In this document: piece after piece, positions 9,918 through 37,834 of the stretch
Position numbering within the stretch: position 1 is the first letter of the stretch
Layout: every line of letters starts with the position of its first letter
Origin: a virus
Taxonomy: Duplodnaviria; Heunggongvirae; Uroviricota; Caudoviricetes
DNA length: 64,000 nucleotides
IMG/VR virus record: IMGVR_UViG_3300017705_000602
Reading direction: 5' to 3' (one strand)
The notes under the pieces: generated by a model
Told to the model about the DNA's origin: nothing
What the model saw: the letters and a program-made list of their open reading frames with translations, nothing else
Database searches by the model: none
Translations under genes and position numbers: made by a program

Positions 9918-10008
9918 GGTGAGTTGGCAGAGTTGGTCTATTGCGCTTGACTGCTAATCAAGAGTCCTGTAACCGGGGCACGTGGGTTCGAATCCCACAC
10001 TCACCGCC
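9918..10008 (+). tRNA. tRNA-Ser (anticodon GCT), class II
   Basis: acceptor ggtgagt/actcacc, anticodon stem cttga/tcaag, loop ctGCTaa, long variable arm, T-loop ttcgaat, CCA. Confidence 0.8.
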
Positions 10009-10026
10009 AAACACAAGGATTACAAC

Positions 10027-11160
10027 GTGTCAAAACGAATAGTAGTAAAAGTTGGCTCTACATTGTTAGCAAACGAAGAAACACTTAGAATGCGATTTGC
10101 ATTTATGTGGGGTTTGCTACGTGATATAGCCGATCTACAAAATCAAGGTTACGATGTAGTACTAATGAGTTCTGGTGCAGTTGCACTAGGTAGAGAAATA
10201 CTCAAAACAGATGACAACAGTATTGCAACCAAACAAGCCGCATCGGCTTGTGGGCAACCAGTATTACTGCATGCTTACAGATCGATTGCACAAGAAATGA
10301 GCAAAGATATTGCTCAAGTGTTGGTTACCATGAGCGAAATGGAATCGCAAGATCATTTTGATGATATCAGCAACACAATTGAACGTTTGTTTGATTATCC
10401 TGTTATTCCTATTGTTAACGAAAACGATACCACAGCAACAAAAGATTTGCGCGTTGGCGACAATGACAGGCTAGCGGCAAAAGTTGCCGAAATGATTGGT
10501 GCAGAACACTTGGTTATACTTACCAGTATTGACGGTTTATACGATCGAAATCCAAGTGATCCAGACGCACAGTTTATCGATGTGCTTGATGATGTTAGTC
10601 AGTATATTGACGGCACAGAAGAAACAAACGGCCTGGGCAGCGGTGGCATGAAAACTAAATTGCAAGCCGCAAACATGGCACAGCAATGCAATTGTACCAC
10701 ACATATTGCCGAAGGCATCATAGATGCACCGGTGTCAAGTGTTATTAATAATACACGAGTGCATACTAAATGTTTGCCGATTGACCAGACAGCATCCAGG
10801 CAAGAACTTTGGTTAAGTAACCGATTGCGAGTAGCATGTTCGATTATTGTTCCGAAACAAGTTGCACAATCTCTTGCAGACACAAAGCAAAATATCGTGT
10901 ATAATGATATTGCTTCACGCTTTGGCGCATTCAGCAGAGATGATATTTTACATGTGTTTAGCGAAGATGGTGTTGAATTAGCACGTGGGTATGCAGAATG
11001 TTCAAGTGATGATCTTGAACACTTGCAACACATGCGCAACCAGTTTGATTCAGAATACGGTGCAGACGCATTGATAATCAAACAAGACCGCATGATGCTA
11101 GTGGAGTCCAGTCAGTTAAGCTGGGACGCACCGGACATTGAAACAACACAATCTGTTTAA
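10027..11160 (+). CDS. glutamate 5-kinase (ProB)-like amino-acid-kinase-family protein with C-terminal PUA domain
   Basis: VVKVGSTLL, VLMSSGAVALGRE, PIVNENDTTATKDLRVGDNDRLAA, GSGGMKTKLQAAN match ProB blocks; C-terminal region matches the ProB PUA domain. GTG start at 10027 chosen (AAGGA 8 nt upstream) because the track start at 9982 lies inside tRNA-Ser. Confidence 0.75.
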   Translation: MSKRIVVKVGSTLLANEETLRMRFAFMWGLLRDIADLQNQGYDVVLMSSGAVALGREILKTDDNSIATKQAASACGQPVLLHAYRSIAQEMSKDIAQVLVTMSEMESQDHFDDISNTIERLFDYPVIPIVNENDTTATKDLRVGDNDRLAAKVAEMIGAEHLVILTSIDGLYDRNPSDPDAQFIDVLDDVSQYIDGTEETNGLGSGGMKTKLQAANMAQQCNCTTHIAEGIIDAPVSSVINNTRVHTKCLPIDQTASRQELWLSNRLRVACSIIVPKQVAQSLADTKQNIVYNDIASRFGAFSRDDILHVFSEDGVELARGYAECSSDDLEHLQHMRNQFDSEYGADALIIKQDRMMLVESSQLSWDAPDIETTQSV

Positions 11161-12800: not shown

Positions 12801-13079
12801 ATGTTTTGTAAGAATTGTGCAACAGAAATAAGCGACCGAGCAAGGTCATGCCCTAAATGCGGACATCCAGTTTGCGAAGAAGGTGCCAAGTCAAAAGTTG
12901 CTTTTGTTATATTGGCGCTACTAGTAGGCGGCTTTGGCATTCACCGTATGTATATCGGTGATTGGTTGCTTGGTATTATATACCTTGTTTTTTGTTGGAC
13001 ATTTATTCCAGCTTTAGTTGCGTTAATAGAAGCTATAGTTATCGGATTTAGAAAAGACGATCCACGCTTCGAATATTAA
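12801..13079 (+). CDS. zinc-ribbon + TM2-domain membrane protein
   Basis: N-terminal CxxC..CxxC ribbon (CKNC..CPKC) followed by two hydrophobic helices with G..G.HRMYIGD pattern typical of TM2 domain. Confidence 0.6.
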   Translation: MFCKNCATEISDRARSCPKCGHPVCEEGAKSKVAFVILALLVGGFGIHRMYIGDWLLGIIYLVFCWTFIPALVALIEAIVIGFRKDDPRFEY

Positions 13080-13084
13080 ATAAT

Positions 13085-13170
13085 GCGGATGTGGTGAAAT
13101 GGGAGACACGCCAGGTTTAGGCCCTGGTGCTAGAAATAGCGTGAGAGTTCGAATCTCTCCATCCGTACCA
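13085..13170 (+). tRNA. tRNA-Leu (anticodon TAG), class II
   Basis: anticodon stem ccagg/cctgg perfect, loop ttTAGgc, long variable arm, T-loop ttcgaat, acceptor gcggatg/catccgt, CCA. Confidence 0.75.
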
Positions 13171-13177
13171 TTTTATA

Positions 13178-13774
13178 CTAGGCCCTTTTTATAATTATTG
13201 CTTGACGACCCATGAACACATTAAGATGTTCATTGTGAATCATGCAAAAGCGGTTTACTGCTTTATAAACACCGGGCCAGTTTTCTTCACTGTAATCATC
13301 GAAATATAAAACTCCTCCTTTCTTTATTTTAGGATACCATTGGTTTATATTTGATTTAGTTTGATCGTAAGTGTGTCCTGCATCGATGTAGATAAAGTCA
13401 ACACTTTCGTCTTCGAACGTCATTTCTTCAACTGCAAGCGGAAGCACAGCTTTTACAAGATGCAGATTTTTTACATCTTGTAAATTTTCTCGTACAGTTT
13501 CCACGCAGTATATTTGATCCGTATCGGCATTATGTAAAAGTGAGTCTTGTTGAAAACTAGCAAGCGTTCTTGGATTACACGGATCACCGAACCAATCGTA
13601 ACAGTACAGATGAACAGAATCTTTTTTATTCATGCCAAGTGCATACGCACTTCTGCCTGCAAACGTACCGAGTTCTACTATGGTGCCATTTTCGGGCACT
13701 TGCTTTGCATATTTTGCTAAGTTTACGAGTGAGCAAGTATTTCCCCAACCGCATATATTTTCATTTATGATCAT
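13178..13774 (-). CDS. class I SAM-dependent methyltransferase (Methyltransf_24 / TylF-MycF-like O-methyltransferase family)
   Basis: minus-strand ORF; SAM-binding motif I IVELGTFAGRSA and motif FIYIDAGHTY...KGGVLYFDDY typical of TylF-type sugar O-methyltransferases. Confidence 0.65.
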   Translation of the reverse strand: MIINENICGWGNTCSLVNLAKYAKQVPENGTIVELGTFAGRSAYALGMNKKDSVHLYCYDWFGDPCNPRTLASFQQDSLLHNADTDQIYCVETVRENLQDVKNLHLVKAVLPLAVEEMTFEDESVDFIYIDAGHTYDQTKSNINQWYPKIKKGGVLYFDDYSEENWPGVYKAVNRFCMIHNEHLNVFMGRQAIIIKRA

Positions 13775-13853
13775 AGCATTATTTATCGGGTACTACACCT
13801 CACTGTGATAAATATACGAAGCATATCGTTTAGGTCGGCAATATAGGAAAACA

Positions 13854-14447
13854 ATGTTAACTACAATTTTGTCAACGCCAAGAACAGGCAGTTCGACTTT
13901 TAGCAACGAAGTAGGTTTAAGTTGGTTTCCTTCTTGCCATCCAAACAAGAATAACCGAGAGTATTTTAATTTTTTACATTGCGACACACCTGAACAAGTG
14001 ACCGAATATTGCGATCGCTATATTGGGTTACTTGAAGAGAAAGTATTAAAAGACGACCAGGATATAGTAATCAAGATACTGATATCCCATCTAGAACATC
14101 AGCCACACATACTGGATCGTGTGTTAGCAATTAGCAGTAAAATTTATCACACTGTTCGTTACAACTACCAAGATCATTTAAAAAGTTATACATCATCAAG
14201 ATTGTCTGGCGAATGGGGAGCTTCTCGCAAGCGTGAGCAGATATCGGTGTGCAACAACACAGTGTCGTTATTCCATACGCACCTTACAGCTCAACTAAAA
14301 ATGCATTCGGATCTTTATCATTTGGTCGGCGGCGACCTTGTTGTACTTGAAGAAAGGACACAAAACAGATATCCGCAAGTACCAGTATTCAATAACAATA
14401 TTATCTGGCCGTCATTCGATACAGAGGCACAGTTTAAAAAACGATAA
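13854..14447 (+). CDS. sulfotransferase-like protein (tentative)
   Basis: N-terminal P-loop-like LSTPRTGSSTF resembling the 5'-PSB PAPS-binding motif; AGGAAAACAATG RBS; divergent from the methyltransferase gene. Confidence 0.4.
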   Translation: MLTTILSTPRTGSSTFSNEVGLSWFPSCHPNKNNREYFNFLHCDTPEQVTEYCDRYIGLLEEKVLKDDQDIVIKILISHLEHQPHILDRVLAISSKIYHTVRYNYQDHLKSYTSSRLSGEWGASRKREQISVCNNTVSLFHTHLTAQLKMHSDLYHLVGGDLVVLEERTQNRYPQVPVFNNNIIWPSFDTEAQFKKR

Positions 14448-14470
14448 ATAATGGTAGTATTCCAAATCAC

Positions 14471-14547
14471 GGTTGTGTAGTTCAGTCTGGTAGAACAGGA
14501 GACTCATATTCTCTATGTCGCAGGTTCAAATCCTGCCTCAACCACCA
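14471..14547 (+). tRNA. tRNA with CAT anticodon, copy 3
   Basis: D-arm gttc agtctggta gaac, anticodon stem ggaga/tctct, loop ctCATat, T-arm gcagg ttcaaat cctgc, CCA. Confidence 0.65.
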
Positions 14548-14566
14548 CTTTATAATAAATACACAC

Positions 14567-14806
14567 ATGACACAAAAATTTGAAATAATAGAAAAATCTT
14601 GGTTCAAGCGCAGAACACCGCGACCAGAACCAAAAGCAGTATCAGTAGACATCCCCGATTACAAACAAGAAAAAAATCACTTCTGTAAAATGCACGTAAC
14701 TTACGACGACGGGTCAACCAAGACCTTGTTGGCTCGCGTGGTACAAAATCATATCAAGAAGCATTGGATCGTTGACGGTATGGAAGTTTCTGTACTGGTA
14801 GTGTAA
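14567..14806 (+). CDS. small hypothetical protein
   Basis: 79-aa ORF. Confidence 0.45.
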   Translation: MTQKFEIIEKSWFKRRTPRPEPKAVSVDIPDYKQEKNHFCKMHVTYDDGSTKTLLARVVQNHIKKHWIVDGMEVSVLVV

Positions 14807-14919
14807 TAAATAATACATCAGAAAAAACATCGATTGACTTTTATAACAATGTATTATACTATATACGTGTCGTTAATCAGTTAACGATAAATTAATTAAT
14901 TTTTACCAAGGATCCACAT

Positions 14920-15654
14920 ATGAAATTTAAAAACATTTTGTTGGGCACAGTAATAGCACTTGGCTTTTCGTCAGTTGCTAATGCGGGCCTAATAACAACA
15001 ATAGATGACTTTTCCGATGACCAAGGTCCGCTAACTGTTATGGCAGGCGGTATGGACTGGAGCTCAGTACTCGGTGACATGATTGGCGGCGAACGTGATT
15101 TAATGATCACAAACATTGTCGATGATAATAACAGAGGGACAACTATCGAAATTACAAACGATAAGTTCTTCTTTAGTGCCGGTTCGGGTGCCGAGTCAAT
15201 GTTTACTATGCAATGGGACGGCATTGATAACTCAATGGACGTTAACACAACTGGGCTAGGCGGAATCAACTTTTTTGAATCTGGCAACTCGGTAGTTTCG
15301 TTTGTTACTGCAATCGTTGAGTCCGACTTAAATGCTTGGTTCGACATCACGTTTTGGTCTGGTGCTAACGGCACTGCTGAAACAGTAGAACTACCAATTC
15401 CAGGTGTTGCATTCCCAGGTCGCGATGCGTTCTTTACCACTAACGAATTTGCAAATACCGATTTTACAAATATCGGCGCAATACAAGTTCGCGGTAACAT
15501 TATATCTCCTGACACTGGGTTAATGGTTCGGTCGTACGACTTGCAACTAGATTCAGTAACAGCAGTACCAGAGCCAGCAATGGCAAGTTTGCTTGGTTTA
15601 GGTCTTGCAGGAATTGCATTAGCAGGTCGCAGAAGAAAAAAACTAGTAGGATAA
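14920..15654 (+). CDS. secreted protein with C-terminal PEP-CTERM sorting signal
   Basis: signal peptide MKFKNILLGTVIALGFSSVANA; C-terminus VPEPAMASLLGLGLAGIALAGRRRKK = VPEP + hydrophobic helix + Arg/Lys cluster; AAGGA RBS. Confidence 0.7.
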   Translation: MKFKNILLGTVIALGFSSVANAGLITTIDDFSDDQGPLTVMAGGMDWSSVLGDMIGGERDLMITNIVDDNNRGTTIEITNDKFFFSAGSGAESMFTMQWDGIDNSMDVNTTGLGGINFFESGNSVVSFVTAIVESDLNAWFDITFWSGANGTAETVELPIPGVAFPGRDAFFTTNEFANTDFTNIGAIQVRGNIISPDTGLMVRSYDLQLDSVTAVPEPAMASLLGLGLAGIALAGRRRKKLVG

Positions 15655-15675
15655 TTATGCGTCACAGCATACAGT

Positions 15676-15702
15676 AAAAAACGGTCGTAAGGCCGTTTTT
15701 TT
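15676..15702 (+). terminator. rho-independent terminator
   Basis: hairpin acggtc-gtaa-ggccgt followed by T7. Confidence 0.65.
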
Positions 15703-15891
15703 ACGATATCAAAAAAGTTGTATAAATACCAGCAGTGTGTATAATTATTATTGTATAGCGCACACCAAGGGTTAAGTGAGCATGCAACAACAGTAACCCC
15801 GAAAGACCCGAAAAACCACGGAAGGTGGCTAGTAAAGCTGGTAACTGTGTGCTATAATGCGCTATACACCCTACAATATATGGAGGTTGAC

Positions 15892-16701
15892 ATGAAAGTT
15901 AAAAAAGAATTACTTAGGGTATTTCTGTTAACGTTCTGTTTGGCCCCGACTTGCACATCCTACAATGATTTTAACACTTCGCTGATCAGATCTGTTTCCA
16001 CTGCGTCTAGTGAAATCGAAGACACCCAGGACCAAGAAAAAGACCGTGATTTGATTTCTGTTGCTCGCCAGGGCAAGCACAACGCAAATGATTCTGAACC
16101 GAACGACATATTAGAACACGATCCTGAGATTGCGGATGATACAGTCGAGGATGAGGATAAAGAAAACATAACACCAACCGTTGTGATACCACAAACAGGA
16201 TCGGACTCAATTAATCCGGATCTTTCGGACAGCACAATTAATCCCGAAAACTTGTTTTTACCTTTCGGGGTCAATCCGCTGTTCGGTGGTGGAACTGCAT
16301 TTGATTTTGATATTATTGGCACACCTGGCAACAGCAGAAGCAACCTAGGCACAAGATACCCAGTATTTAATTTTGGTAATTTCGGAATGTTACCAGGCGG
16401 GTTTTGGAATTTTAATCCCGGAACAGTTGATGTTGACCTAGACGACATGCTAGGCGATGCAGGCAATGATAACGACAACGGTAATGATAATGATAACGAC
16501 AGCGGTAACGACAATGACTTTGACTTCGGCAACCCCGGTGATGATTTTGTTATCGTAATTGAACCTATAGACCCAGGTTCAATTGATGTTGGTATTGGCA
16601 ATGGCAATGATGATATTGTTGACGTACCGGCACCACAAACTGCATTGCTATTATTTTTATCAATTGCTATACTACTTTACAATCGTAAATTTACACCATA
16701 A
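15892..16701 (+). CDS. secreted Asp/Asn/Gly-rich repeat protein with PEP-CTERM-like C-terminus
   Basis: GGAGG RBS then ATG at 15892; signal peptide MKVKKELLRVFLLTFCLAPTCTS; low-complexity GNDNDN repeats; C-terminus VPAPQTALLLFLSIAILLYNRKFTP (VPxP + helix + basic); extended -10 TGTGcTATAAT at 15848-15858. Confidence 0.55.
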   Translation: MKVKKELLRVFLLTFCLAPTCTSYNDFNTSLIRSVSTASSEIEDTQDQEKDRDLISVARQGKHNANDSEPNDILEHDPEIADDTVEDEDKENITPTVVIPQTGSDSINPDLSDSTINPENLFLPFGVNPLFGGGTAFDFDIIGTPGNSRSNLGTRYPVFNFGNFGMLPGGFWNFNPGTVDVDLDDMLGDAGNDNDNGNDNDNDSGNDNDFDFGNPGDDFVIVIEPIDPGSIDVGIGNGNDDIVDVPAPQTALLLFLSIAILLYNRKFTP

Positions 16702-16713
16702 TAAGGAATAATC

Positions 16714-17010
16714 ATGGACACACAAGACATCGCTCTTATGGCCGCTTTACAAAATAAATTCAAAGCAGGACATCTAAACCCTTTTACTAAATTCGTTTTA
16801 TCGGACGATAACACATATATTGTTTGCGGTGAATGCCACGGTGATCCACGATGGGCTGACGGCACTATTATTCGGACTTCAGTAGTGCTTTGTCATCACG
16901 AAGACGATGGTGTCATTGAAACCAGAAACAGTTATTACACTGTGGGCGAAGAAGTTCCGGACGACGACGAAAATAGAATTGAGCGTTTGCGTTTATTGTC
17001 AGTATTGTAA
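16714..17010 (+). CDS. hypothetical protein
   Basis: 98-aa ORF with AGGAATAATCATG context. Confidence 0.5.
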   Translation: MDTQDIALMAALQNKFKAGHLNPFTKFVLSDDNTYIVCGECHGDPRWADGTIIRTSVVLCHHEDDGVIETRNSYYTVGEEVPDDDENRIERLRLLSVL

Positions 17011-17390
17011 TGAAAGTGATTTATCGCCAGCTTGAAAGCATATACTCCACTAAACCGGATTCGCCGTGTTCGTTTGAACTATTGCTCGATGAAGGTTCGG
17101 AGTACTACTGCCAGCTAGTGTTAGCCCAAGGCGAAGATAACGTCACTTATACATTTAAAGGTAATGTGTCAATCGACATGACTGACTCGGTTATCAGTTT
17201 AAGCATACGCTACATGTTTTTTAAACCTATTTTCGAAGCATTGCTTGCAGGCGCACTAATTATCAGATACCACGGATACCAGATTATTCCTGATCTTAAA
17301 AGCATGACCTTGTCCGATCATCGAGACCATGGCAAGGATTATATATTCAATTGCGTTAAATTCAAAGCGGTGTTTGATTTCCAACAATAG
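17010..17390 (+). CDS. hypothetical protein
   Basis: 126-aa ORF, ATGA-overlap with upstream gene. Confidence 0.5.
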   Translation: MKVIYRQLESIYSTKPDSPCSFELLLDEGSEYYCQLVLAQGEDNVTYTFKGNVSIDMTDSVISLSIRYMFFKPIFEALLAGALIIRYHGYQIIPDLKSMTLSDHRDHGKDYIFNCVKFKAVFDFQQ

Positions 17391-17420
17391 ATAAATATGC
17401 TTATCAATCTGGAGATAAGC

Positions 17421-17801
17421 ATGTCTGTTCAAGTCCCTGCTATAAAAGCAATCATAATATTGCCATCGGAGCAAAACGAAAAAACACTTTATTTATTGCT
17501 TGAAGATTTCACTTTTAACGGCATCACTGTGCCAAAGGGCTTTGTGACCGACGGTGCCACAATTCCACGCATTTTTTGGCCGATTTTGCCGCCTGTAGAC
17601 AAGTATATGCCAGCGGCAATAGTACACGATTATATGCTAACACAGACAAGCAGACGCGAAGCAGACACCTTGTTTAACGACACGCTTAAACTGTTACGTA
17701 TCAAGCGATATCGTCGATGGTTAATGTATGGTGCAGTAAGGATTTTCGCACACTGGAAAAAACTTGTAACAAAGGTTAAAGGTCTGTATAGTAGCAAGTA
17801 A
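17421..17801 (+). CDS. DUF1353-family phage protein
   Basis: motif GFVTDGATIPRIFWPI and AAIVHDYM typical of DUF1353; start at ATG 17421 after GGAGATAAGC RBS. Confidence 0.6.
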   Translation: MSVQVPAIKAIIILPSEQNEKTLYLLLEDFTFNGITVPKGFVTDGATIPRIFWPILPPVDKYMPAAIVHDYMLTQTSRREADTLFNDTLKLLRIKRYRRWLMYGAVRIFAHWKKLVTKVKGLYSSK

Positions 17802-17814
17802 ACAACATAAAGGT

Positions 17815-18354
17815 TTGCTTATTATGAATTACAACAAAATCGTTTGCTTGGATTTAGAAATGACATGCTGGGACGATGGGCGTGAACCACGCACCGGCGA
17901 AATTATCGAAATAGGTCTAGCCAAGCTCGATCTTTCCACGCAAGAAATCGAAAAAACAGCTTCGTACATTGTTAAACCGGATCACGACGAAGTCAGTGAA
18001 TTCTGCACACAATTAACAGGGCATACCCAAAGCTCTGTGAATCGCCAAGGCCGCCCTTTTGCCGATGTGTTAGACACTGTAGTCAAGAACTTTGGCGGCG
18101 CCAGTGTAATATACGGCTCGTGGGGCAGAGATGACTTGGTCATGCGCAAAGAATGCGAAGCAAAAGGAATCGTTTATCCTTTTAAAGAATACATCAATCT
18201 AGCAACTGTATTTAGAATGCAACAGCGTGTCAAGAACAAACGTTTCGGGCACAAACGAGCAATGCAGATTGCAGGCTTGGAGTGGGAAGGACGCCAGCAT
18301 TCGGGTGTAGTAGATGCAACCAACCTAGCAAGATTAACAATGACCATGCTGTAA
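17815..18354 (+). CDS. DEDDh 3'-5' exonuclease (DnaQ/KapD-like)
   Basis: Exo I CLDLEMTCWDDG..EIIEIG (D-x-E), Exo III HSGVVDATNLARL (H-x4-D). Confidence 0.7.
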   Translation: MLIMNYNKIVCLDLEMTCWDDGREPRTGEIIEIGLAKLDLSTQEIEKTASYIVKPDHDEVSEFCTQLTGHTQSSVNRQGRPFADVLDTVVKNFGGASVIYGSWGRDDLVMRKECEAKGIVYPFKEYINLATVFRMQQRVKNKRFGHKRAMQIAGLEWEGRQHSGVVDATNLARLTMTML

Positions 18355-18355
18355 A

Positions 18356-18384
18356 GGTTGACAAAAGAAACGCATTCAGTTATA
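18356..18384 (+). promoter_or_regulatory. sigma70-type promoter TTGACA-17-TATAAT
   Basis: TTGACA 18356-18361, TATAAT 18379-18384. Confidence 0.55.
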
Positions 18385-18451
18385 ATGTAGACTACTAAAA
18401 CATAAATTAACAAAGGTACAAATTATGAAATAAACTAAAAATAAAGCAACT

Positions 18452-18808
18452 ATGCGTCTGTGGCGTTGGGGGTATGATCAGTTTAGAACTGGTTATAGAA
18501 TATTCACAATTGCTTATATAAAGGCGCTTAGATGGGATATATATTTGTTTCATTATCCCGAAGGGTCGTTTATACCTAAGCATAAAGATCCTTCAAAGTA
18601 CGGCAAGCATTACCGTTTTAATATAACTCTTAAACGACCTGAACAGGGCGGCGAGTTTATTTGCAACAATGTAGTGTTTAGATGGTGGAGATTTTGTTTG
18701 TTTAGAGCAGATGCAAATTACCACCGCGTAACTCGAATTGAAAAAGGTAGCCGTTGGATACTAAGCTTCGGTTTTACATTTAAGCATGACAAAAGTTCAA
18801 ATCGGTAA
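18452..18808 (+). CDS. small 2OG-Fe(II) oxygenase-like protein (paralog of 4609..4941)
   Basis: FIPKHKDPSKYGKHYRFNITLK HxD...H pattern shared with the 4609 paralog. Confidence 0.5.
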   Translation: MRLWRWGYDQFRTGYRIFTIAYIKALRWDIYLFHYPEGSFIPKHKDPSKYGKHYRFNITLKRPEQGGEFICNNVVFRWWRFCLFRADANYHRVTRIEKGSRWILSFGFTFKHDKSSNR

Positions 18809-19415
18809 TAACAGCATGGAACTTCCGGAAGGCCCAATTGGGCTTTCCTTTTCTACCGGTCTCGATAGTACAATTTTGTTGTACTTGCTTGCACAGCAAG
18901 TAAAGTCGGATTTACATTTGTTTACTATAAGTGTTCATTCTCGAGACCTACATGCAATCAAGTATTCGGCAGATATACTCAATTGGGTAATTGCACAAAC
19001 AGGTAAAACAAACATTTATCTGCATGTGACTGTAAAGCAAGATGCCGACGATGCATTAGGCAATGCAGGATTATACAAGACACCGGCTGAATATTTAGCA
19101 AGAGGCTTAATCAACTGCGTAGTAACTGGACATAACAGTTTACCGCCCGATGAAATCGATCTAGGATGGCCTGCAAAAGATTCGCACGATTACAAAATTC
19201 GAACTCCGCACGAACAGCGCGATATCGAATTTGCAACAAATTGGTTCAGTCCATTGACAAACTGCAACAAGAAACAGATTGCAGAACTTTTTTTAGAAAA
19301 TGGTGCATTAGCACTTGCGAAAAAGACTAATAGCTGTTATACTTCGTATAACGAAGAGCCATGTAAGCAGTGCTTTGCTTGTAAAGAAAAATTCTGGGGC
19401 TTTGGGTTTTACTAA
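18786..19415 (+). CDS. QueC-like PP-loop ATP pyrophosphatase, paralog 1 (degenerate PP-loop)
   Basis: N-terminal LSFSTGLDSTILLY (variant of SGGxDS) and C-terminal Zn-ribbon CYTSYNEEPCKQCFACKEKFWGFGF matching QueC TCY..GCGxCxxCxxRxxGF. Confidence 0.6.
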   Translation: MTKVQIGNNSMELPEGPIGLSFSTGLDSTILLYLLAQQVKSDLHLFTISVHSRDLHAIKYSADILNWVIAQTGKTNIYLHVTVKQDADDALGNAGLYKTPAEYLARGLINCVVTGHNSLPPDEIDLGWPAKDSHDYKIRTPHEQRDIEFATNWFSPLTNCNKKQIAELFLENGALALAKKTNSCYTSYNEEPCKQCFACKEKFWGFGFY

Positions 19416-22342: not shown

Positions 22343-23172
22343 AAACGATACCTGCAGACGAGCCGGTGCTGGTAGACGATATTGCAGTTATGACATACAA
22401 CGAATCTCGTGTTATGTCGCAGTATTGGCGTGCCGGTGAATCGTTATGGAAAGGTGTTATGCCATGTAACAGTTTCCAGCTTTTGCACGAAAACAGTATA
22501 CGCCAAACAGTATTCGGGTACTTTGTTAATCAGTGTTTTCGATGCTCAGTAGATGAAATTGCAGATGACGATATCACAGTTAACAATTATTGGCTTGAAA
22601 TACTACCTAAGATTTTGTGGTTATGCGAAGAATGGTTAACCAAAAAACAATTTGTTGAACCCCTTATGGCGCACTGGAATCCCCGAATACAAAAGAATGT
22701 GGTACATCCTGGAATGTCACGTGCAAGTGTGATGCATCTGTTTCCGCAAGGACTTACTGAATTCTCAGTGGTGTATTTTAATACCGGCGGTGGATACGAT
22801 CGCAACACAATGAACAAGCTGAGAAAAATTACAATAGACGATTTAATCGACGATGGCTGGAACACAATGACATTTGTCGCCGACCACGAATCTCTTATTC
22901 CGCATTTTTCAAAAAATATTGAAGCAAATGCAAACTACAAAAAAGATTACCATCGTAAGATAATCGAACGGCTATCGTCAATGTCGATAGAAACAAATAC
23001 TAAAGACACTATATTTACAGATCCGCTGTCAGCTTGGATTAAAAGAAACGGTAACGTACAAATTATTTTCACCGATCAAGAACCGGGTCCGTTAGCACAA
23101 GCAAGGGCATTGTTGTGTGCATTGTTAGGAAAAACGTACACAGACCATGAAGTAAAAGTATCATGCAATTAG
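22327..23172 (+). CDS. hypothetical protein
   Basis: 281-aa from ATG 22327 (AAGGACG RBS); immediately upstream of and overlapping the radical SAM gene. Confidence 0.5.
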   Translation: MEPEMKTIPADEPVLVDDIAVMTYNESRVMSQYWRAGESLWKGVMPCNSFQLLHENSIRQTVFGYFVNQCFRCSVDEIADDDITVNNYWLEILPKILWLCEEWLTKKQFVEPLMAHWNPRIQKNVVHPGMSRASVMHLFPQGLTEFSVVYFNTGGGYDRNTMNKLRKITIDDLIDDGWNTMTFVADHESLIPHFSKNIEANANYKKDYHRKIIERLSSMSIETNTKDTIFTDPLSAWIKRNGNVQIIFTDQEPGPLAQARALLCALLGKTYTDHEVKVSCN

Positions 23173-24128
23173 AGCGAGCAGTAATCGAAATTGCAGGAGG
23201 TTGCAATTACACCTGCGGAATGTGTCCTCAGAGCACAGGACGTGGCAAAGACTTTACCAAAAAGATGTCGGTATCTCATTTTGCTCAACTGCTCGACGAG
23301 ATTGTGGACAAGTATGGCAGCCCTCAGATTAATTTAGAAGGCTCAGGTGAGCCCACTATCAATCGAGATTTACCTTTGTATATACGAGAATGCACAAAGC
23401 GCAATCTTAAAAGTTTCATGTATACAAATGGTGCAAGGTTTAAAGGTAAACTGATGACCGATTCCATTGACGCCGGATTGTCTTTTGTTAGATTCAGTTG
23501 CATTGGCTACAATCGTGAGACTTATAAAAAATGGATGAGTCGTAACAACTTCGATTTGCTGATAAAAAATGCTATTGCTACACAGCAATACATACAGCAG
23601 ACTGAATCAAACTGCACAGTGAGCAGTTATCACCTAATACTAGACAACGCTAACATCGAGTACGAGATCGAGCAGTATCGGCGTAACTTTATTGAGCAAG
23701 TCGAATCAGTTGCGTATATCTGGAAAATGCACAACTGGAGCGGAAACATACAGCCAATATATCTGAGAGATACTTCCGATCGCAGAACATGCGGACGTCC
23801 ATTTGCACCCGAAATAACCATACGAGCCGGTGGCCTAGATGGTAAATACGGAGCAGTAACACCTTGTTGTCAAACTATGGGTCCACCGCACGAAGCCGAA
23901 AGCGTGCTAGGGCATACTTCTGTAAACACAATTGAAGAAATATTTACAGGAGAAAAATATGAGCAATTACGAAAAGCTCATAGACAACAAGACTTTGATA
24001 GTGTATCATATTGCAAAGATTGTGATTTCTTGTATGAAGACCCTGAGGTTCTAGTATGGAGTAACGATACTAGTGCAACAACAAATCACATGCTTGGAAC
24101 AAATTTTAATTTAGAAGATTACAAATAA
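23163..24128 (+). CDS. radical SAM enzyme with C-terminal SPASM/twitch-like Cys cluster
   Basis: N-terminal CNYTCGMC (Cx3Cx2C) in GGCNYTCGMCPQS; C-terminal Cys-rich region TCGRP...TPCCQTMG...SYCKDCDF. Confidence 0.7.
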   Translation: MQLERAVIEIAGGCNYTCGMCPQSTGRGKDFTKKMSVSHFAQLLDEIVDKYGSPQINLEGSGEPTINRDLPLYIRECTKRNLKSFMYTNGARFKGKLMTDSIDAGLSFVRFSCIGYNRETYKKWMSRNNFDLLIKNAIATQQYIQQTESNCTVSSYHLILDNANIEYEIEQYRRNFIEQVESVAYIWKMHNWSGNIQPIYLRDTSDRRTCGRPFAPEITIRAGGLDGKYGAVTPCCQTMGPPHEAESVLGHTSVNTIEEIFTGEKYEQLRKAHRQQDFDSVSYCKDCDFLYEDPEVLVWSNDTSATTNHMLGTNFNLEDYK

Positions 24129-24328: not shown

Positions 24329-24994
24329 ATGCGAATTGAACTGCTCGGAAATGATTATATTGACATACCCAACGATACCAGTGTAGGTGTCGGATTTAGC
24401 GGTGGTGTTGATTCTACTTTGTTATTGTACATAATGTTGCTATACTCGCCGCATACTGTATTTCCGCTTACTATAACAGTTAACAATCGTTATCATCGCC
24501 ATAAGCAAGTGGCATCGGAAGTTCTTGAACTGTGCTGTAATGAAACAGGCAACCACGAAGTTATACATTCGGCAATACATTGCAACGATATTGATTTAGA
24601 AAATGGCACTAACCCTACTGCATTAAAACAAAACTGGTTTTTAAAGTCTGGCATGATCAGCACTTTGTTTCTTGGTACTAACCAGTTACCACCAGCTGGT
24701 CATATACACACTGAAGACTTTCGACACAATCACACTGACGAGTACTATCGGCGAGAACCCGGTGTGTTAAAAGCTACTAGTACCCACGGTGGTGCATTTC
24801 AGTTGCCACTCATTAATTATGACAAACGACAAATCTGCGAGCTGTACAGAAAGTTTGGTATATCAGATGAAATATACAAGCGCACATGGTCTTGCTCGAC
24901 TATACTCAGTGACAAGGATTGGAATGTAAATAGACATTGTGGGAAATGCGGCCCTTGTCACGAACGTATTTTTGGGTTTGGAAAAATAGAATAG
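24329..24994 (+). CDS. QueC-like 7-cyano-7-deazaguanine synthase family PP-loop ATPase, paralog 2
   Basis: canonical PP-loop VGFSGGVDSTLLLY; C-terminus WSCSTILSD..HCGKCGPCHERIFGFG matches QueC zinc motif. Confidence 0.7.
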   Translation: MRIELLGNDYIDIPNDTSVGVGFSGGVDSTLLLYIMLLYSPHTVFPLTITVNNRYHRHKQVASEVLELCCNETGNHEVIHSAIHCNDIDLENGTNPTALKQNWFLKSGMISTLFLGTNQLPPAGHIHTEDFRHNHTDEYYRREPGVLKATSTHGGAFQLPLINYDKRQICELYRKFGISDEIYKRTWSCSTILSDKDWNVNRHCGKCGPCHERIFGFGKIE

Positions 24995-31489: not shown

Positions 31490-31525
31490 ATGCAATGGCA
31501 ATTATGCATAACAAAGGAAAATCGC

Positions 31526-32527
31526 ATGTCATCGAAAGAAATTACTCCAGGTCGCATTATAAAATGGATCGTGTGGGCAATACTAGCTATTATTGCTTTT
31601 AGTGCTCTAATGGGATCGTTTTATATTAACTCAGAATACGAGCGCACAGTTGAAACACGCTTAGGCGAAATCAACGGTGATGTAACCGGTCCTGGGTTAC
31701 AGTTTAAAGCACCGTTTATCGATTCTGCTCACACAGCAGACATTCGCATAGACGAAATCAACTACCCGGGCGAAGTAACTGCATCGTACGATGGTCAGAC
31801 AATCAACATTGATATTACTATTAACCACCAGATACTTGAAGCGTCTGTGCAAAAGTTATATTCGGACTTTGGTTCAAACTATAACTACAGCGATCGTATC
31901 TTGCGCAAGATGGCAATTGATCGTATTAAAGGACTGATCGGTACATACAAAATTGAAGAGTTCATGCCTAATCGTGAACAGATTAGACAAGAAGCACTAA
32001 CAGTTGTTAAAGCAGAAGCCAACAAGTACGGTGTTAACATACTGGACATTCAGTTATCGAACTTTGAATTTGACCCACGCTTTAAAACACGTTTACAAGA
32101 AGTTGCTGATGCAAGAGCGCGAGCGTCAAAAGAAGAACAGCGAGCACGTGAAGCCGGCTTTGCTGCCGAGAAGCGTATCGAAGTCGAACGTGGTGAAGCA
32201 GAATCTAAAAAGCTTGCTGCCGATGCAAACGCTCACAAAATTCGTGTAGAGTCGGAACAAAAAGCGGCAGCTATACAGCGCGAAGGTGAAGCACAAGCGG
32301 CATCTGAACTTGCTAAAGGTACTGCAAAAGCCGAAGCAATTAAAGCACAGCTTGAAGCACTTGAACGAGGCGGGCAGAATTTGGTTGAGTTAACCAAAGC
32401 CGAAGCAATGAAAAATTGGGACGGTGTATACAGCCCGGACACAGTTATCAGTTCAGGCGGTACAGGCCAGCCAGGTTTTATACCTTTCATGAACTACAAT
32501 GAACTGTTGAAGCCAAAGAAAAACTAA
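31526..32527 (+). CDS. SPFH/band-7 (prohibitin/HflKC-like) membrane protein
   Basis: N-terminal TM then band-7 core (GLQFKAPFIDS...) and long Ala/Glu/Lys-rich coiled coil; AAAGGAAAATCGCATG RBS. Confidence 0.7.
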   Translation: MSSKEITPGRIIKWIVWAILAIIAFSALMGSFYINSEYERTVETRLGEINGDVTGPGLQFKAPFIDSAHTADIRIDEINYPGEVTASYDGQTINIDITINHQILEASVQKLYSDFGSNYNYSDRILRKMAIDRIKGLIGTYKIEEFMPNREQIRQEALTVVKAEANKYGVNILDIQLSNFEFDPRFKTRLQEVADARARASKEEQRAREAGFAAEKRIEVERGEAESKKLAADANAHKIRVESEQKAAAIQREGEAQAASELAKGTAKAEAIKAQLEALERGGQNLVELTKAEAMKNWDGVYSPDTVISSGGTGQPGFIPFMNYNELLKPKKN

Positions 32528-36764: not shown

Positions 36765-36820
36765 TAAAGCTGTTATCTGTGCTACAATAACATGTGATCA
36801 ACTATTATAAGGCGCACACT

Positions 36821-37834
36821 ATGTACCGTATCGGCTTTGCATGCAAATTTACGCATCACGACCAGAGTTTAAAAAAGAAGAAACTCGAAGAAATCGAACG
36901 TCCGTATCGTCCTCGCATAACCACAGCACGCTGGCTCGATCAGCAAGATCAGCATGTGGCTGAACAGCGACTTAAAGATTTGATTACTCACAACGTCGAA
37001 GCAACTGCGCGACTGGTTGCATGGGTCGGTCAGTACGAACGCGAGCTTCGTATGTTGCGTATTGGTAGCGACTTATTGCCCATGTACACACATCCAAAGT
37101 GGAAGAATTTCTACACCGACAACCCATCTTTTATGGCCGGCATACAAGAACAGTTTAGACGCATCGGCATTGTTGCTCGCGAAAAAGATGTGCGCCTTTC
37201 GTTTCATCCGGGTCAGTTTACTGTGCTTGCTAGCGACAGACCAGAAGTTGTTGAGAACTCAATTGAAGAATTCGAGTACCATGCAGACATGCTACGCTGG
37301 ATGGGGTACGGTCGTACATTCCAAGATGCCAAGTGCAACGTACACATCAGCGGCAAGCTAGGTCCACAAGGCATTATCGATATACTGCCGCGTCTCAGCG
37401 AAGTTGCTCGCAATGTGATCACAATCGAGAATGACGAAATGTCATACGGTCTTGATGCATCGCTTGAGCTAGCTGATCATCTAGCTCTTGTCATAGATTG
37501 CCATCATCACTGGGTACGCACAGGCGAATACTTACAGCCCGACGACGAGCGTGTTAAGGCAGTTATTGCGTCATGGCGCGGCAAGCGACCGACTATGCAC
37601 TATTCATTATCACGCGAGGACTTGCTGGTCGATCATTGCCGTGATACTAAACCCGACATGGATAAATTACTCGAGCAAGGTTACAAAAAACAAAAGTTGC
37701 GTGCTCACTCCGACTACATGTGGAATCGAGAATGCAACAAGTGGGCAGCCGGCTTCTTAGGTAACTTCGATATCATGGTCGAGTCCAAGGCTAAGAATTT
37801 GGCATCGTTTAAGTTGTACAACGAGATTAAATGA
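36821..37834 (+). CDS. UV DNA damage endonuclease (UvdE/UVDE family)
   Basis: MYRIGFACKF, RMLRIGSDLLP, ITIENDE, IDCHHH match UVDE conserved blocks. Confidence 0.75.
   Translation: MYRIGFACKFTHHDQSLKKKKLEEIERPYRPRITTARWLDQQDQHVAEQRLKDLITHNVEATARLVAWVGQYERELRMLRIGSDLLPMYTHPKWKNFYTDNPSFMAGIQEQFRRIGIVAREKDVRLSFHPGQFTVLASDRPEVVENSIEEFEYHADMLRWMGYGRTFQDAKCNVHISGKLGPQGIIDILPRLSEVARNVITIENDEMSYGLDASLELADHLALVIDCHHHWVRTGEYLQPDDERVKAVIASWRGKRPTMHYSLSREDLLVDHCRDTKPDMDKLLEQGYKKQKLRAHSDYMWNRECNKWAAGFLGNFDIMVESKAKNLASFKLYNEIK

What the first reader, a model, noticed from the sequence alone, without database searches (positions are those of the whole stretch)
14920..16701. Two tandem PEP-CTERM-type secreted proteins encoded by a phage
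Both proteins have a signal peptide and end with VPxP + hydrophobic helix + basic cluster. The first is a textbook VPEP...RRRKK. PEP-CTERM is the exosortase sorting signal of EPS-producing Gram-negative bacteria. Such proteins in a phage imply a host with an exosortase system, and phage proteins that hijack it for cell-surface display or superinfection exclusion. The second is a low-complexity Asp/Asn/Gly repeat protein.
Basis: partly seen in the sequence, partly recalled or inferred. Interest (0 to 1): 0.65.

Follow-up and report, generated by a model that had tools for sequence, protein, structure and literature searches.

The report
Marine jumbo phage carries PEP-CTERM protein
A clade of uncultured giant ocean phages keeps a gene for a secreted, sugar-binding-like protein that ends in the bacterial PEP-CTERM (exosortase) sorting signal, so the phage probably uses its host's sorting machinery to place its own protein on the infected cell; the second gene next to it only nearly matches that signal.

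Summary
The window is a jumbo myovirus: rIIA, tail sheath, large terminase, 23 tRNAs.

**ORF1 (14920-15654, 244 aa)** is a genuine PEP-CTERM protein.
- It passes both curated models: TIGR02595 19.8 bits against a cut-off of 16, and PF07589 24.5 against 20.7.
- It has a signal peptide ending in ANA.
- It sits in the same syntenic slot in independent marine assemblies of 175-335 kb, always with a TTGAC/-10 promoter, an AAGGA ribosome-binding site and a terminator.
- It is under purifying selection (dN/dS 0.14-0.29).
- Bacterial relatives lie within 10 kb of XrtA/PEP-CTERM system genes (PrsK, TIGR03013).

**ORF2 (true start 15892, 269 aa)** is a real gene (dN/dS 0.15) but an orphan, absent from sister phages.
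- Its tail, VPAP + helix + NRK, scores 15.6 bits, just under the cut-off of 16.
- A single A-to-E change would make it pass.
- It is therefore a borderline or degenerate PEP-CTERM tail.

**Not established.** The host is unknown, and no exosortase-like ORF lies in the window. Surface display is inferred, and superinfection exclusion is speculation.

**Verdict.** A new, unusually placed member of a known kind, of moderate interest.

The parts
14834..14862 (+). Sigma-70-type promoter-like site upstream of ORF1 (TTGACT, 17 nt spacer, TACTAT)
   Evidence: Found by the consensus scan. The -35 TTGAC and a TAnnnT -10 are kept in all six syntenic phage loci aligned. They match the promoter motifs reported for PA5oct, the closest cultured relative, which uses the host RNA polymerase (PMC7318152).
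14908..14912 (+). Ribosome-binding site AAGGA, 7 nt before the ORF1 ATG
   Evidence: Read from the sequence. It is invariant in all seven aligned loci.
14920..15654 (+). ORF1, a 244-aa PEP-CTERM protein. It has a signal peptide (aa 1-22), a beta-sandwich passenger (about aa 23-215) and a sorting tail.
15565..15651 (+). PEP-CTERM sorting tail of ORF1: VPEP, helix AMASLLGLGLAGIALAG, then RRRKK
   Evidence: TIGR02595 aligns to aa 216-240 and PF07589 to aa 215-239. P219 is invariant and P217/E218 are at least 90% conserved in 59 homologues. Replacing VPEP by GSGS in silico drops the score from 25.6 to 15.6 bits.
15674..15704 (+). Intrinsic-terminator-like hairpin (A-run, GC stem, U7) just after the ORF1 stop
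   Evidence: RNA fold of 15655-15712: -19.2 kcal/mol, z -5.3, and 0 of 200 shuffles fold as well. An equivalent hairpin with a T-run follows the orthologue in every locus checked.
15655..15891 (+). Intergenic region upstream of ORF2. It contains an extended -10 (TGCTATAAT, 15850-15858) and GGAGG (15882-15886).
   Evidence: Promoter and ribosome-binding site were read by inspection. The region is 99.6% identical to the sister variant, against 95.6% for flanking coding DNA and 90-96% within ORF2. It has no Rfam match and no stable fold (z -0.08).
15892..16701 (+). ORF2, a 269-aa acidic Asp/Asn/Gly-rich orphan protein. It has a signal-peptide-like N-terminus and a borderline PEP-CTERM-like tail (VPAP...NRK, nt 16624-16698). 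The GNDNDN repeats lie at about 16455-16545.
   Evidence: The only relative found, among 5.8e9 sequences and 1.84e9 cluster representatives, is its own variant P0082. dN/dS is 0.15 with in-frame indels. The tail alone scores 15.6 bits against a cut-off of 16, and each of its three elements is needed for that score. The gene is absent from the same slot in sister phages.
13854..14447 (+). Possibly associated 197-aa gene with an N-terminal STPRTGSS loop; tentatively sulfotransferase-like (Stf0-like)
13178..13774 (-). Possibly associated TylF/Methyltransf_24-type methyltransferase, a lineage-specific neighbour
   Evidence: PF13578 E 2e-15 and PF05711 E 2e-6. It is present with the 197-aa gene in this phage but absent from the P0003-type phages. 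The association is only positional.

Best explanation
ORF1 is a phage-borne member of a bacterial family of PEP-CTERM (exosortase-sorted) proteins. It was acquired long ago and has since been inherited vertically in a clade of uncultured marine jumbo myoviruses.

Proposed mechanism, step by step:
1. The gene is a self-contained unit (sigma-70-type promoter, ribosome-binding site, ORF, terminator) read by the host RNA polymerase. The features are shown; their use is inferred.
2. The product is exported by Sec through a cleavable signal peptide. The sequence features are shown; export is inferred.
3. It is held in the inner membrane by the C-terminal helix and basic cluster (inferred).
4. The host's exosortase recognises it at VPEP, removes the anchor, and passes the beta-sandwich domain on to the cell surface or exopolysaccharide layer. 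This step is inferred from established knowledge of the PEP-CTERM/EpsH system.
5. The carbohydrate-binding-module-like passenger then probably binds a surface glycan and changes the infected cell's envelope. Candidate effects are masking a polysaccharide receptor, which would limit superinfection or loss of progeny on debris, or altering aggregation. This last step is speculative.

ORF2 is a separate, recently gained, fast-changing orphan gene for an acidic protein. Its tail is a weakened PEP-CTERM variant (PAP instead of PEP, with only two basic residues). It may use the same route, but this is not established.
For: **Identity.** Both curated HMMs are passed. The tripartite tail is intact, and each element contributes to the score.

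**Phage context.** Hallmark phage genes and 23 tRNAs lie in the window. The same slot (101-aa gene, PEP-CTERM gene, 98-aa gene, 126-129-aa gene, DUF1353, RNase T) recurs in many independent assemblies of 175-335 kb from Tara and other marine samples. A further relative lies on a 262-kb IMG/VR contig in a different context.

**Maintenance.**
- dN/dS is 0.14-0.29.
- 23 of 24 phage-clade homologues keep a [PSA][EA]P motif with a helix and basic cluster.
- The tail can stay 97% identical while the passenger falls to 44% (P0022).

**Expression signals.** They are conserved and match the host-RNAP promoters of PA5oct.

**Link of the passenger family to exosortase systems.**
- 78 of 81 homologues end in a PEP-type tail.
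- Bacterial members lie within 10 kb of PrsK (TIGR02916, 911 and 797 bits) or the TIGR03013 XrtA/PEP-CTERM glycosyltransferase (516 bits).

**Fold.** A CBM-like beta-jelly-roll at high model confidence.

**Background.** PEP-CTERM proteins co-occur with EpsH exosortase, are mostly single-gene units, and associate with EPS (PMC1569441). Loss of an exosortase alters the PEP-CTERM exoproteome and adhesion to polysaccharide (PMC12188702).
Against: - The host is unknown. No exosortase-like ORF lies in the window, where no ORF has more than three predicted TM segments. The remaining 250 kb or so of the genome was not visible.
- No experiment or tool here shows export, cleavage or surface location.
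- The CBM similarity is fold-level only (about 10% identity, no CBM Pfam hit), so glycan binding is unproven.
- There is no sigma-54/PrsR-type upstream element as in proteobacterial PEP-CTERM genes, so regulation differs.
- ORF2 fails the curated threshold and has no homologues that could show conservation of its tail.
- No cultured phage carries a relative, so no phenotype is available.
Confidence: 0.55

Rival explanations
1. Exosortase-independent membrane anchor. The C-terminal helix and basic cluster simply tether the beta-sandwich domain to the periplasmic face of the inner membrane. There it would act on peptidoglycan, periplasmic glucans or incoming phage DNA, as some small phage immunity proteins do. 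The PEP motif would be a relic of the bacterial ancestor.
For: No exosortase-like ORF lies in the window and the host is unknown. The Gly/Leu-rich helix plus RRRKK alone still gives 15.6 bits without the PEP motif. The tail is therefore first of all a good stop-transfer anchor.
Against: - The motif proline P219 is invariant, and P217/E218 are at least 90% conserved over 59 homologues.
- A [PSA][EA]P motif persists in 23 of 24 phage-clade sequences although the helix sequence changes freely. A relic would have decayed at dS above 1.
- Bacterial relatives sit in XrtA loci.
Confidence: 0.2
2. Decoy or competitor. The phage over-expresses a PEP-CTERM substrate to saturate or redirect the host exosortase. 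This would shut down sorting of host PEP-CTERM proteins and loosen the EPS/floc matrix, for example to free infected cells or ease progeny escape. The passenger domain itself would matter little.
For: The gene has a strong stand-alone promoter and terminator. Tail classes are exchanged or maintained independently of the passenger, as expected if the tail is the active part.
Against: The passenger is itself under purifying selection (dN/dS 0.12-0.23). It also keeps family-wide invariant residues: D29, F31, G56, R59, D100, G112, L113. This argues that the folded domain has its own function.
Confidence: 0.1
3. On ORF2 only: it is not an exosortase substrate. It would be an unrelated, rapidly evolving acidic membrane-anchored or secreted protein, perhaps cation-binding, whose C-terminal VPAP + helix resembles PEP-CTERM by chance or by decay.
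For: - The full-length protein hits no PEP-CTERM model, and the tail alone is under the cut-off.
- It has only two basic residues.
- There are no homologues outside its own lineage.
- It is absent from sister phages.
Against: - The best and nearly only match of the tail in 18,950 NCBIfam models is TIGR02595, aligned end to end over positions 1-22 of 24.
- Removing the motif, shuffling the helix or removing the basic residues each abolishes the hit, and one A-to-E change gives 20.3 bits.
- PAP/SAP variants occur in clear family members: P0069, P0048, P0010, P0012.
- It lies directly beside a true PEP-CTERM gene, and only 2 of 296 ORFs in the window have such a tail.
Confidence: 0.4
4. The genes are bacterial, not viral. 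The region would be a mis-assembly, a chimera, or host DNA flanking a prophage.
For: PEP-CTERM proteins are otherwise a bacterial feature. No cultured phage in INPHARED has a relative.
Against: - The same gene sits in the same slot between the same phage genes in many independent assemblies from different samples.
- GC is uniform at about 0.40 and nearly all genes lie on one strand.
- No GTDB genome carries the phage-clade version.
- Identity to any bacterial homologue is at most 38%.
Confidence: 0.02

Closest known systems
Bacterial PEP-CTERM / exosortase (XrtA-EpsH) substrates, e.g. the floc-forming PepA of Zoogloea resiniphila (NF033554)
   Same: - Signal peptide, diverse passenger, C-terminal PEP motif + TM helix + Arg/Lys cluster.
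- Single-gene transcription unit preceded by an intergenic region.
- The tail matches floc_PepA, EDSAP-1, THxN and FxDxF tails at 28-35 bits.
   Different: - It is encoded by a lytic-type jumbo phage rather than a bacterium.
- It has a sigma-70-like promoter instead of the sigma-54/PrsR element.
- It is not a PepA equivalog: 37.8 bits against a cut-off of 80, with nearly all of the score (35 bits) coming from the tail.
Uncharacterised bacterial PEP-CTERM family with the IDDFS / GGERD / WDG.D / TGLGG motifs (Thiobacillus, Chromatiaceae, Sedimenticola, Pseudomaricurvus, Alteromonadaceae, Paraglaciecola, Planctomycetes)
   Same: It is homologous over the whole length (E down to 1e-21, 24-38% identity), with the same invariant residues and the same tail. 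Bacterial copies lie near PrsK or the TIGR03013 glycosyltransferase, and can be clustered paralogues.
   Different: The phage copies form their own group at 38-82% passenger identity to ORF1, against at most 38% full-length identity for bacterial homologues. They sit among phage genes. Neither Pfam nor NCBIfam has a model for the passenger.
Carbohydrate-binding modules of the beta-jelly-roll type (CBM11, CBM30, CBM29, CBM4, CBM61; N-terminal domain of GH50 agarases)
   Different: Only about 10% identity, no sequence-family membership, no catalytic partner domain, and the ligand is unknown.
Phage proteins that ride a host envelope-sorting pathway to alter the infected cell surface, e.g. T5 Llp lipoprotein blocking FhuA, or prophage-encoded LPXTG surface proteins (recalled from general knowledge, not checked here)
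   Same: The logic is the same: a small phage gene with its own expression signals, a host-type sorting signal and an exported product that changes the cell surface.
   Different: The sorting system differs (exosortase rather than the lipoprotein pathway or sortase). The passenger is unrelated, and no phenotype is known.
PEP-CTERM domain protein HOG10 of the IME1 virus-like elements of Dehalococcoides (bioRxiv 10.64898/2026.09.15.751708)
   Same: It is the only mention found in the searched library of a PEP-CTERM domain in a virus-like mobile element.
   Different: - It is an integrative element resembling filamentous or budding viruses, not a tailed jumbo phage.
- The host phylum is different.
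- No sequence comparison was made here.

Membership tests
PEP-CTERM sorting domain (TIGR02595 / PF07589): ORF1 | Score at or above the curated cut-off of the domain models | tested here: met
   TIGR02595 scores 19.8 bits against 16, and 25.6 bits for the tail alone. PF07589 scores 24.5 bits against 20.7.
PEP-CTERM sorting domain: ORF1 | Pro-Glu-Pro motif at the extreme C-terminus, followed by a transmembrane helix and a basic cluster | tested here: met
   The tail reads VPEP + AMASLLGLGLAGIALAG + RRRKK. AF2 models a helix at residues 221-243. Removing the motif costs 10 bits.
PEP-CTERM sorting domain: ORF1 | N-terminal signal peptide | tested here: met
   By inspection and alignment only. The N-terminus reads MKFKNILLGTVIALGFSSVANA|GL. 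A20 and A22 are at least 90% conserved, and the mature N-terminus IDDFS is conserved in 59 homologues. No signal-peptide predictor was available.
PEP-CTERM sorting domain: ORF1 | An exosortase (EpsH/Xrt) encoded in the same cell | not testable with these tools
   The host is unknown, and no ORF in the window has more than three predicted TM segments. Indirect support: bacterial relatives lie within 10 kb of PrsK or TIGR03013 XrtA-system genes.
PEP-CTERM sorting domain: ORF1 | Exosortase-dependent C-terminal processing and export | not testable with these tools
   Requires experiment.
PEP-CTERM sorting domain: ORF2 | Score at or above the curated cut-off | tested here: not met
   The full length gives no hit. 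The isolated tail gives 15.6 bits against 16. An in-silico A-to-E change gives 20.3 bits.
PEP-CTERM sorting domain: ORF2 | Tripartite tail: motif, helix, basic cluster | tested here: inconclusive
   The tail reads VPAP + TALLLFLSIAILLY + NRK. Each element is needed for the HMM hit, and PAP variants occur in true members. However, there are only two basic residues, and no homologues exist to show conservation.
Flocculation-associated PepA (NF033554, equivalog): ORF1 | Full-length score at or above 80 bits | tested here: not met
   The score is 37.8 bits, of which 35 come from the tail alone.
Carbohydrate-binding module (beta-jelly-roll CBMs): ORF1 passenger | Fold similarity, plus sequence membership of a CBM family or a demonstrated ligand | tested here: inconclusive
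   [not shown]
Unimolecular spanin (considered for ORF2: N-terminal lipoprotein signal + C-terminal TM) | Lipobox [LVI][ASTVI][GAS]C, and a location in a lysis cassette | tested here: not met
   LTFC and APTC both violate position -1 (by inspection). The neighbours are not lysis genes. The gene is missing from sister phages.
Stf0-type sulfotransferase (considered for the neighbouring 197-aa protein) | Sulfotransferase fold with PAPS-binding loops | tested here: inconclusive
   [not shown]

The most novel reading that the evidence does not exclude
A cosmopolitan clade of uncultured marine jumbo phages has domesticated a substrate of the bacterial exosortase pathway. During infection the host's XrtA-type machinery would decorate the cell surface or EPS with a phage-made glycan-binding protein. 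In some lineages this would come with an extra acidic PEP-CTERM-like protein and sulfo-/methyl-transferase-like enzymes. The result would be altered phage adsorption or cell aggregation. This would be the first viral client of exosortase sorting. It would also give a genomic marker that restricts the unknown hosts of these phages to exosortase-bearing, EPS-producing bacteria.
Probability: 0.3. Interest if true: 0.7.

Novelty: new member of a known kind. Interest (0 to 1): 0.45.

Why it matters
**Host prediction.** Hosts of most marine jumbo phages could not be predicted in a dedicated survey (PMC9123017). A conserved phage gene that only makes sense in a cell with an exosortase narrows the search to EPS-producing Gram-negatives with that system.

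**Biology.** It suggests that these abundant phages remodel the polysaccharide and surface layer of infected cells. In the ocean that layer bears on aggregation, particle formation and phage adsorption.

**Exosortase field.** Few substrates there have any assigned role. This is a compact, well-folding, evolutionarily maintained substrate with swappable tail classes, which makes it a convenient probe of signal recognition.

**Limit.** None of the functional consequences is shown yet.

Tried and rejected
1. **Cultured phages.** Megablast of 13000-19000 and tblastn of ORF1 against 50,697 phage records gave no match. No cultured relative or annotation could be borrowed.
2. **ORF2 homologues.** The word-indexed search of 5.8e9 proteins and a full phmmer of 1.84e9 representatives found only its own variant, P0082.
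3. **Host identification.**
   - The phage-clade alignment found nothing in 185,579 GTDB species genomes.
   - Alignments A1 and A3 were too diverse for the locus finder.
   - The second scan found only distant bacterial family members.
   - The literature offered no host for such phages.
4. **Exosortase in the window.** No ORF has more than three predicted TM segments. The rest of the roughly 320-kb genome could not be read.
5. **Sigma-54 promoter.** No -24/-12 site lies upstream of ORF1 or ORF2, and window-wide counts are at chance level.
6. **PepA and FxDxF membership.** Rejected, because those hits are driven by the tail.
7. **u-spanin reading of ORF2.** Rejected: no lipobox, no lysis context, not conserved.
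8. **Structured RNA in the hyper-conserved ORF2 leader.** No Rfam hit and z -0.08.
9. **Structure tools.** The afdb50 fold library was unavailable.
10. **L010.** This short IMG/VR contig carries a frame-disrupted relative next to bacterial housekeeping genes, so it was not counted as phage cargo.
11. **Literature.** No paper in the library describes PEP-CTERM proteins in tailed phages.
Full report
**What the window is**

The 64-kb window is part of a jumbo myovirus.
- GC is about 0.40 throughout, and almost all ORFs of at least 100 aa lie on the + strand.
- There are 23 tRNA genes between 2.9 and 33.8 kb.
- Phage hallmark genes are clear: rIIA (42148-44577, phrog_612, E 1.5e-105), tail sheath (51670-54273, E 6e-237), large terminase (60101-61663, E 9e-131) and a tail tube protein.
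- The sheath is about 50% identical to that of Pseudomonas phage PA5oct. It is 45-47% identical to Agrobacterium/Sinorhizobium jumbo phages and about 40% to RaK2-like phages.
- No cultured phage matches the DNA.
- The exact ORF1 protein occurs on a 319,623-bp contig. So the finding does concern a phage.

**Checking the observation: ORF1**

ORF1 (14920-15654, 244 aa) begins MKFKNILLGTVIALGFSSVANA|GL and ends VPEPAMASLLGLGLAGIALAGRRRKKLVG.
- It passes the curated cut-offs of both PEP-CTERM models: TIGR02595 19.8 bits against 16, and PF07589 24.5 against 20.7. The tail alone gives 25.6 bits.
- Replacing VPEP by GSGS in silico lowers this to 15.6 bits. So the motif, the helix and the basic cluster all contribute.

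**Checking the observation: ORF2**

ORF2 is listed from TTG 15751, but the convincing start is ATG 15892, five bases after GGAGG. That gives 269 aa. One gene caller and the sister variant use this start.
- It is acidic and rich in D/N/G, with 47 acidic against 8 basic residues in the mature part.
- It ends VDVPAPQTALLLFLSIAILLYNRKFTP.
- The full-length protein hits no PEP-CTERM model.
- The isolated tail aligns end to end with TIGR02595 at 15.6 bits, 0.4 below the cut-off.

In-silico controls on the ORF2 tail:

| Change | TIGR02595 result |
|---|---|
| Native tail | 15.6 bits |
| VPAP to VPEP (A to E) | 20.3 bits |
| VPAP to GSGS | no hit |
| Helix shuffled | no hit |
| NRK to NSQ | no hit |

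PAP/SAP variants exist in undoubted family members (P0069, P0048, P0010, P0012). ORF2's tail is therefore a borderline or degenerate PEP-CTERM signal, not a textbook one.

A loose tail pattern applied to all 296 six-frame ORFs of at least 50 aa hits only these two adjacent genes.

**ORF1 is a conserved phage gene**

The protein search found a graded series of relatives, at 80 down to 35% identity, on marine metagenome contigs. Several of these are 220-335 kb, from Tara Oceans and other samples. IMG/VR holds it on contigs of 306, 311 and 262 kb.
- In the P0003-, P0013- and P0023-type phages and the window's own phage, the gene occupies one syntenic slot. A 101-aa gene lies upstream. Downstream lie a 98-aa gene, a 126-129-aa gene, DUF1353 and RNase T.
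- The P0006-type phages have different downstream neighbours.
- All six syntenic loci aligned keep a -35 TTGAC, a TAnnnT -10 at a 17-nt spacing, and an AAGGA ribosome-binding site.
- Every locus has an A-run/GC-hairpin/T-run terminator directly after the stop. In the window its fold has z -5.3.
- PA5oct, the nearest cultured relative, depends on the host RNA polymerase. Its promoters carry -35 TTGAC and -10 TATAATA (PMC7318152).
- ORF1 is thus a self-contained, host-RNAP-type transcription unit.
- It evolves under purifying selection: dN/dS 0.14-0.29 for the whole gene, 0.12-0.23 for the passenger, with dS above 1.

**The tail is maintained, and partly independently of the passenger**

- Of 24 phage-clade homologues, 23 keep a [PSA][EA]P motif, a hydrophobic helix and at least three basic residues. 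The 25th sequence, P0017, is an adapter chimera.
- Tail similarity does not follow passenger similarity. P0022 is 44% identical to ORF1 in the passenger but 97% in the tail. P0003 is 79% identical in the passenger but 59% in the tail.
- Recurrent tail classes (AMASLLGLGLAG..., SMAGLLGLGLAGMAFAG..., AP[IV]ALLGA...) are therefore either exchanged between genes or held by a constraint separate from the passenger. That is what one expects of a signal read by a host enzyme.

**What the passenger is**

- An AlphaFold2 model built on 59 homologues is confident (pLDDT 90.5, pTM 0.82). It shows an all-beta sandwich between the signal helix and the C-terminal helix.
- There is no sequence-level CBM membership, so glycan binding is a reasonable inference only.
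- The apparent NCBIfam similarity to the floc protein PepA (37.8 bits against a cut-off of 80) comes almost entirely from the tail, which scores 35 bits alone. ORF1 is not a PepA equivalog.

**Bacterial relatives and the link to exosortase**

- The homologous family has invariant D29, F31, G56, R59, D100, G112, L113 and P219. It occurs in Planctomycetes MAGs and Paraglaciecola aquimarina. In GTDB genomes it occurs in Thiobacillus, Chromatiaceae, Sedimenticola, Pseudomaricurvus alcaniphilus, an Alteromonadaceae isolate, Planctomycetes and a Chloroflexi MAG.
- 78 of 81 homologues end in a PEP-type tail.
- Within 10 kb of the gene lie PrsK, the XrtA/PEP-CTERM system histidine kinase, in Thiobacillus (911 bits) and Sedimenticola (797 bits). 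In Pseudomaricurvus the TIGR03013 XrtA/PEP-CTERM system glycosyltransferase lies there (516 bits).
- The Alteromonadaceae locus has three clustered paralogues.
- The phage copies are at most 38% identical to any bacterial one, and none occurs in a GTDB genome. This indicates an old capture followed by vertical descent in the phage clade.

**Established background**

- The PEP-CTERM domain is a PEP motif, a TM helix and a basic cluster. It comes with an N-terminal signal peptide, is found only in bacteria with an outer membrane and EPS genes, and co-occurs with the EpsH exosortase. Its genes are mostly single-gene operons, with a sigma-54 element in Proteobacteria (PMC1569441).
- Deleting an exosortase changes the PEP-CTERM exoproteome and adhesion to polysaccharide (PMC12188702).
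- PEP-CTERM proteins and EPS are jointly needed for floc formation (Gao et al. 2018, as cited in PMC12642866).
- The phage gene has no sigma-54 site. Its control has been replaced by a phage/host sigma-70-type promoter.

**ORF2**

ORF2 is a real gene.
- Against its only relative (P0082, on two short contigs with the same flanks), dN/dS is 0.15 at dS 0.24, with in-frame indels in the GNDNDN repeats.
- It is nevertheless an orphan: nothing else was found among 5.8e9 sequences or 1.84e9 cluster representatives.
- It is missing from the same slot in the P0003- and P0013-type phages, and a different gene sits there in the P0023-type phages.
- It follows ORF1's terminator and has its own extended -10 and ribosome-binding site.
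- The two genes are therefore neighbours, not an operon, and ORF2 is a recent lineage-specific addition.
- A unimolecular-spanin reading was considered and rejected. There is no valid lipobox, no lysis context, and the gene is not conserved.

**Neighbourhood**

In the window's lineage, a TylF/Methyltransf_24 methyltransferase (13178-13774, minus strand) and a 197-aa protein (13854-14447) lie just upstream of ORF1.
- The 197-aa protein has only three relatives, all from this phage group.
- In the P0023-type phages its 41-44% homologue lies immediately downstream of the PEP-CTERM gene. This is recurrent linkage in two arrangements.
- Together with ORF1 and ORF2 this looks like a small cell-envelope-modification islet, but that is inference.

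**Most likely mechanism, and its limits**

The proposed sequence is expression from the host-type promoter, Sec export, anchoring by the tail, recognition and cleavage at VPEP by the host's exosortase, and delivery of a glycan-binding-like domain to the surface or EPS layer.
- The sequence features and their conservation are shown. Every biochemical step is inferred from the family.
- What the phage gains is speculative. Candidates are receptor masking or superinfection exclusion, protection of progeny from adsorption to debris, and changed aggregation.
- The main rival is that the tail is only a membrane anchor. That is disfavoured by the persistence of the PEP motif at saturated synonymous divergence.
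- A decoy role is possible but does not explain selection on the passenger.

**What could not be determined**

The host could not be determined. No exosortase-like ORF lies in the window, and about 250 kb of the genome was out of reach. A published survey of marine jumbo phages also could not assign hosts confidently (PMC9123017).

**Novelty and verdict**

- The protein is an ordinary member of a known signal class and of an existing, uncharacterised bacterial passenger family. The unusual point is where it lives: a conserved, independently expressed gene in a widespread clade of uncultured marine jumbo phages.
- In the searchable literature, the only mention of a PEP-CTERM domain in a virus-like element is an unrelated Dehalococcoides element.
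- I rate it a new member of a known kind, of moderate interest.
- Its value is as a host-range marker and as a lead to phage manipulation of the EPS/surface layer.
The functional interpretation is plausible but untested.

Noticed in passing
window 37831-38688 (+): A 285-aa glycoside hydrolase family 6 (cellulase/cellobiohydrolase family) protein, PF01341 E 4.8e-57, with no evident signal peptide. A beta-glucan hydrolase in a marine jumbo phage is unusual. Together with the CBM-like PEP-CTERM protein, it may point to a host with a glucan-type exopolysaccharide.
   Followed up: partly
[not shown]
   Followed up: partly
window 15655-15891: The 237-nt leader/intergenic region before ORF2 is 99.6% identical to the sister variant. 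Flanking coding DNA is 95.6% identical and ORF2 itself 90-96%. The region contains an inverted repeat (GTATAGCGCACAC ... GTGTGC-TATAAT-GCGCTATAC) around the -10 element. It has no Rfam match and no stable fold. The reason for the conservation is unexplained.
   Followed up: partly
homologues P0001-P0025 (phage clade of ORF1): Sorting tails fall into a few recurrent classes whose distribution does not follow passenger phylogeny. For example, P0022 is 44% identical in the passenger but 97% in the tail. This suggests tail swapping or separate constraint, possibly tracking host exosortase specificity.
   Followed up: partly
window 2913-33837: 23 tRNA genes on the + strand are interspersed with small ORFs. 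They include three tRNA-Met and one tRNA-Met (14471-14547) lying 373 bases upstream of ORF1.
   Followed up: no
window 9982-11160; 18786-19415; 23163-24128; 24329-24994; 31490-32527; 36794-37834: Accessory genes: an AA_kinase+PUA (ProB-like glutamate 5-kinase), two QueC-like PP-loop proteins, a radical SAM/SPASM enzyme, an SPFH/Band-7 protein and a UvdE UV endonuclease.
   Followed up: no
L018 8967-12907 (Alteromonadaceae bacterium XY-R5): Three clustered paralogues (236-238 aa) of the same PEP-CTERM family sit in one bacterial locus. Tandem arrangement is thus native to the bacterial family too.
   Followed up: no
protein P0017 (235 aa, 1,009-bp contig): Its C-terminus...VPCLLYTSPSPRDRTRSRMPSSA, replaces the sorting tail. 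It looks like read-through into sequencing-adapter sequence (my recollection of the adapter, not checked). It was treated as an assembly artefact, not a natural tail-less variant.
   Followed up: no
window 14567-14806 (+): A 79-aa ORF between tRNA-Met and ORF1 has a weak, sub-threshold Rib-domain match (E 0.005, 18 bits against 27). It is present in the same phage's other assemblies.
   Followed up: no
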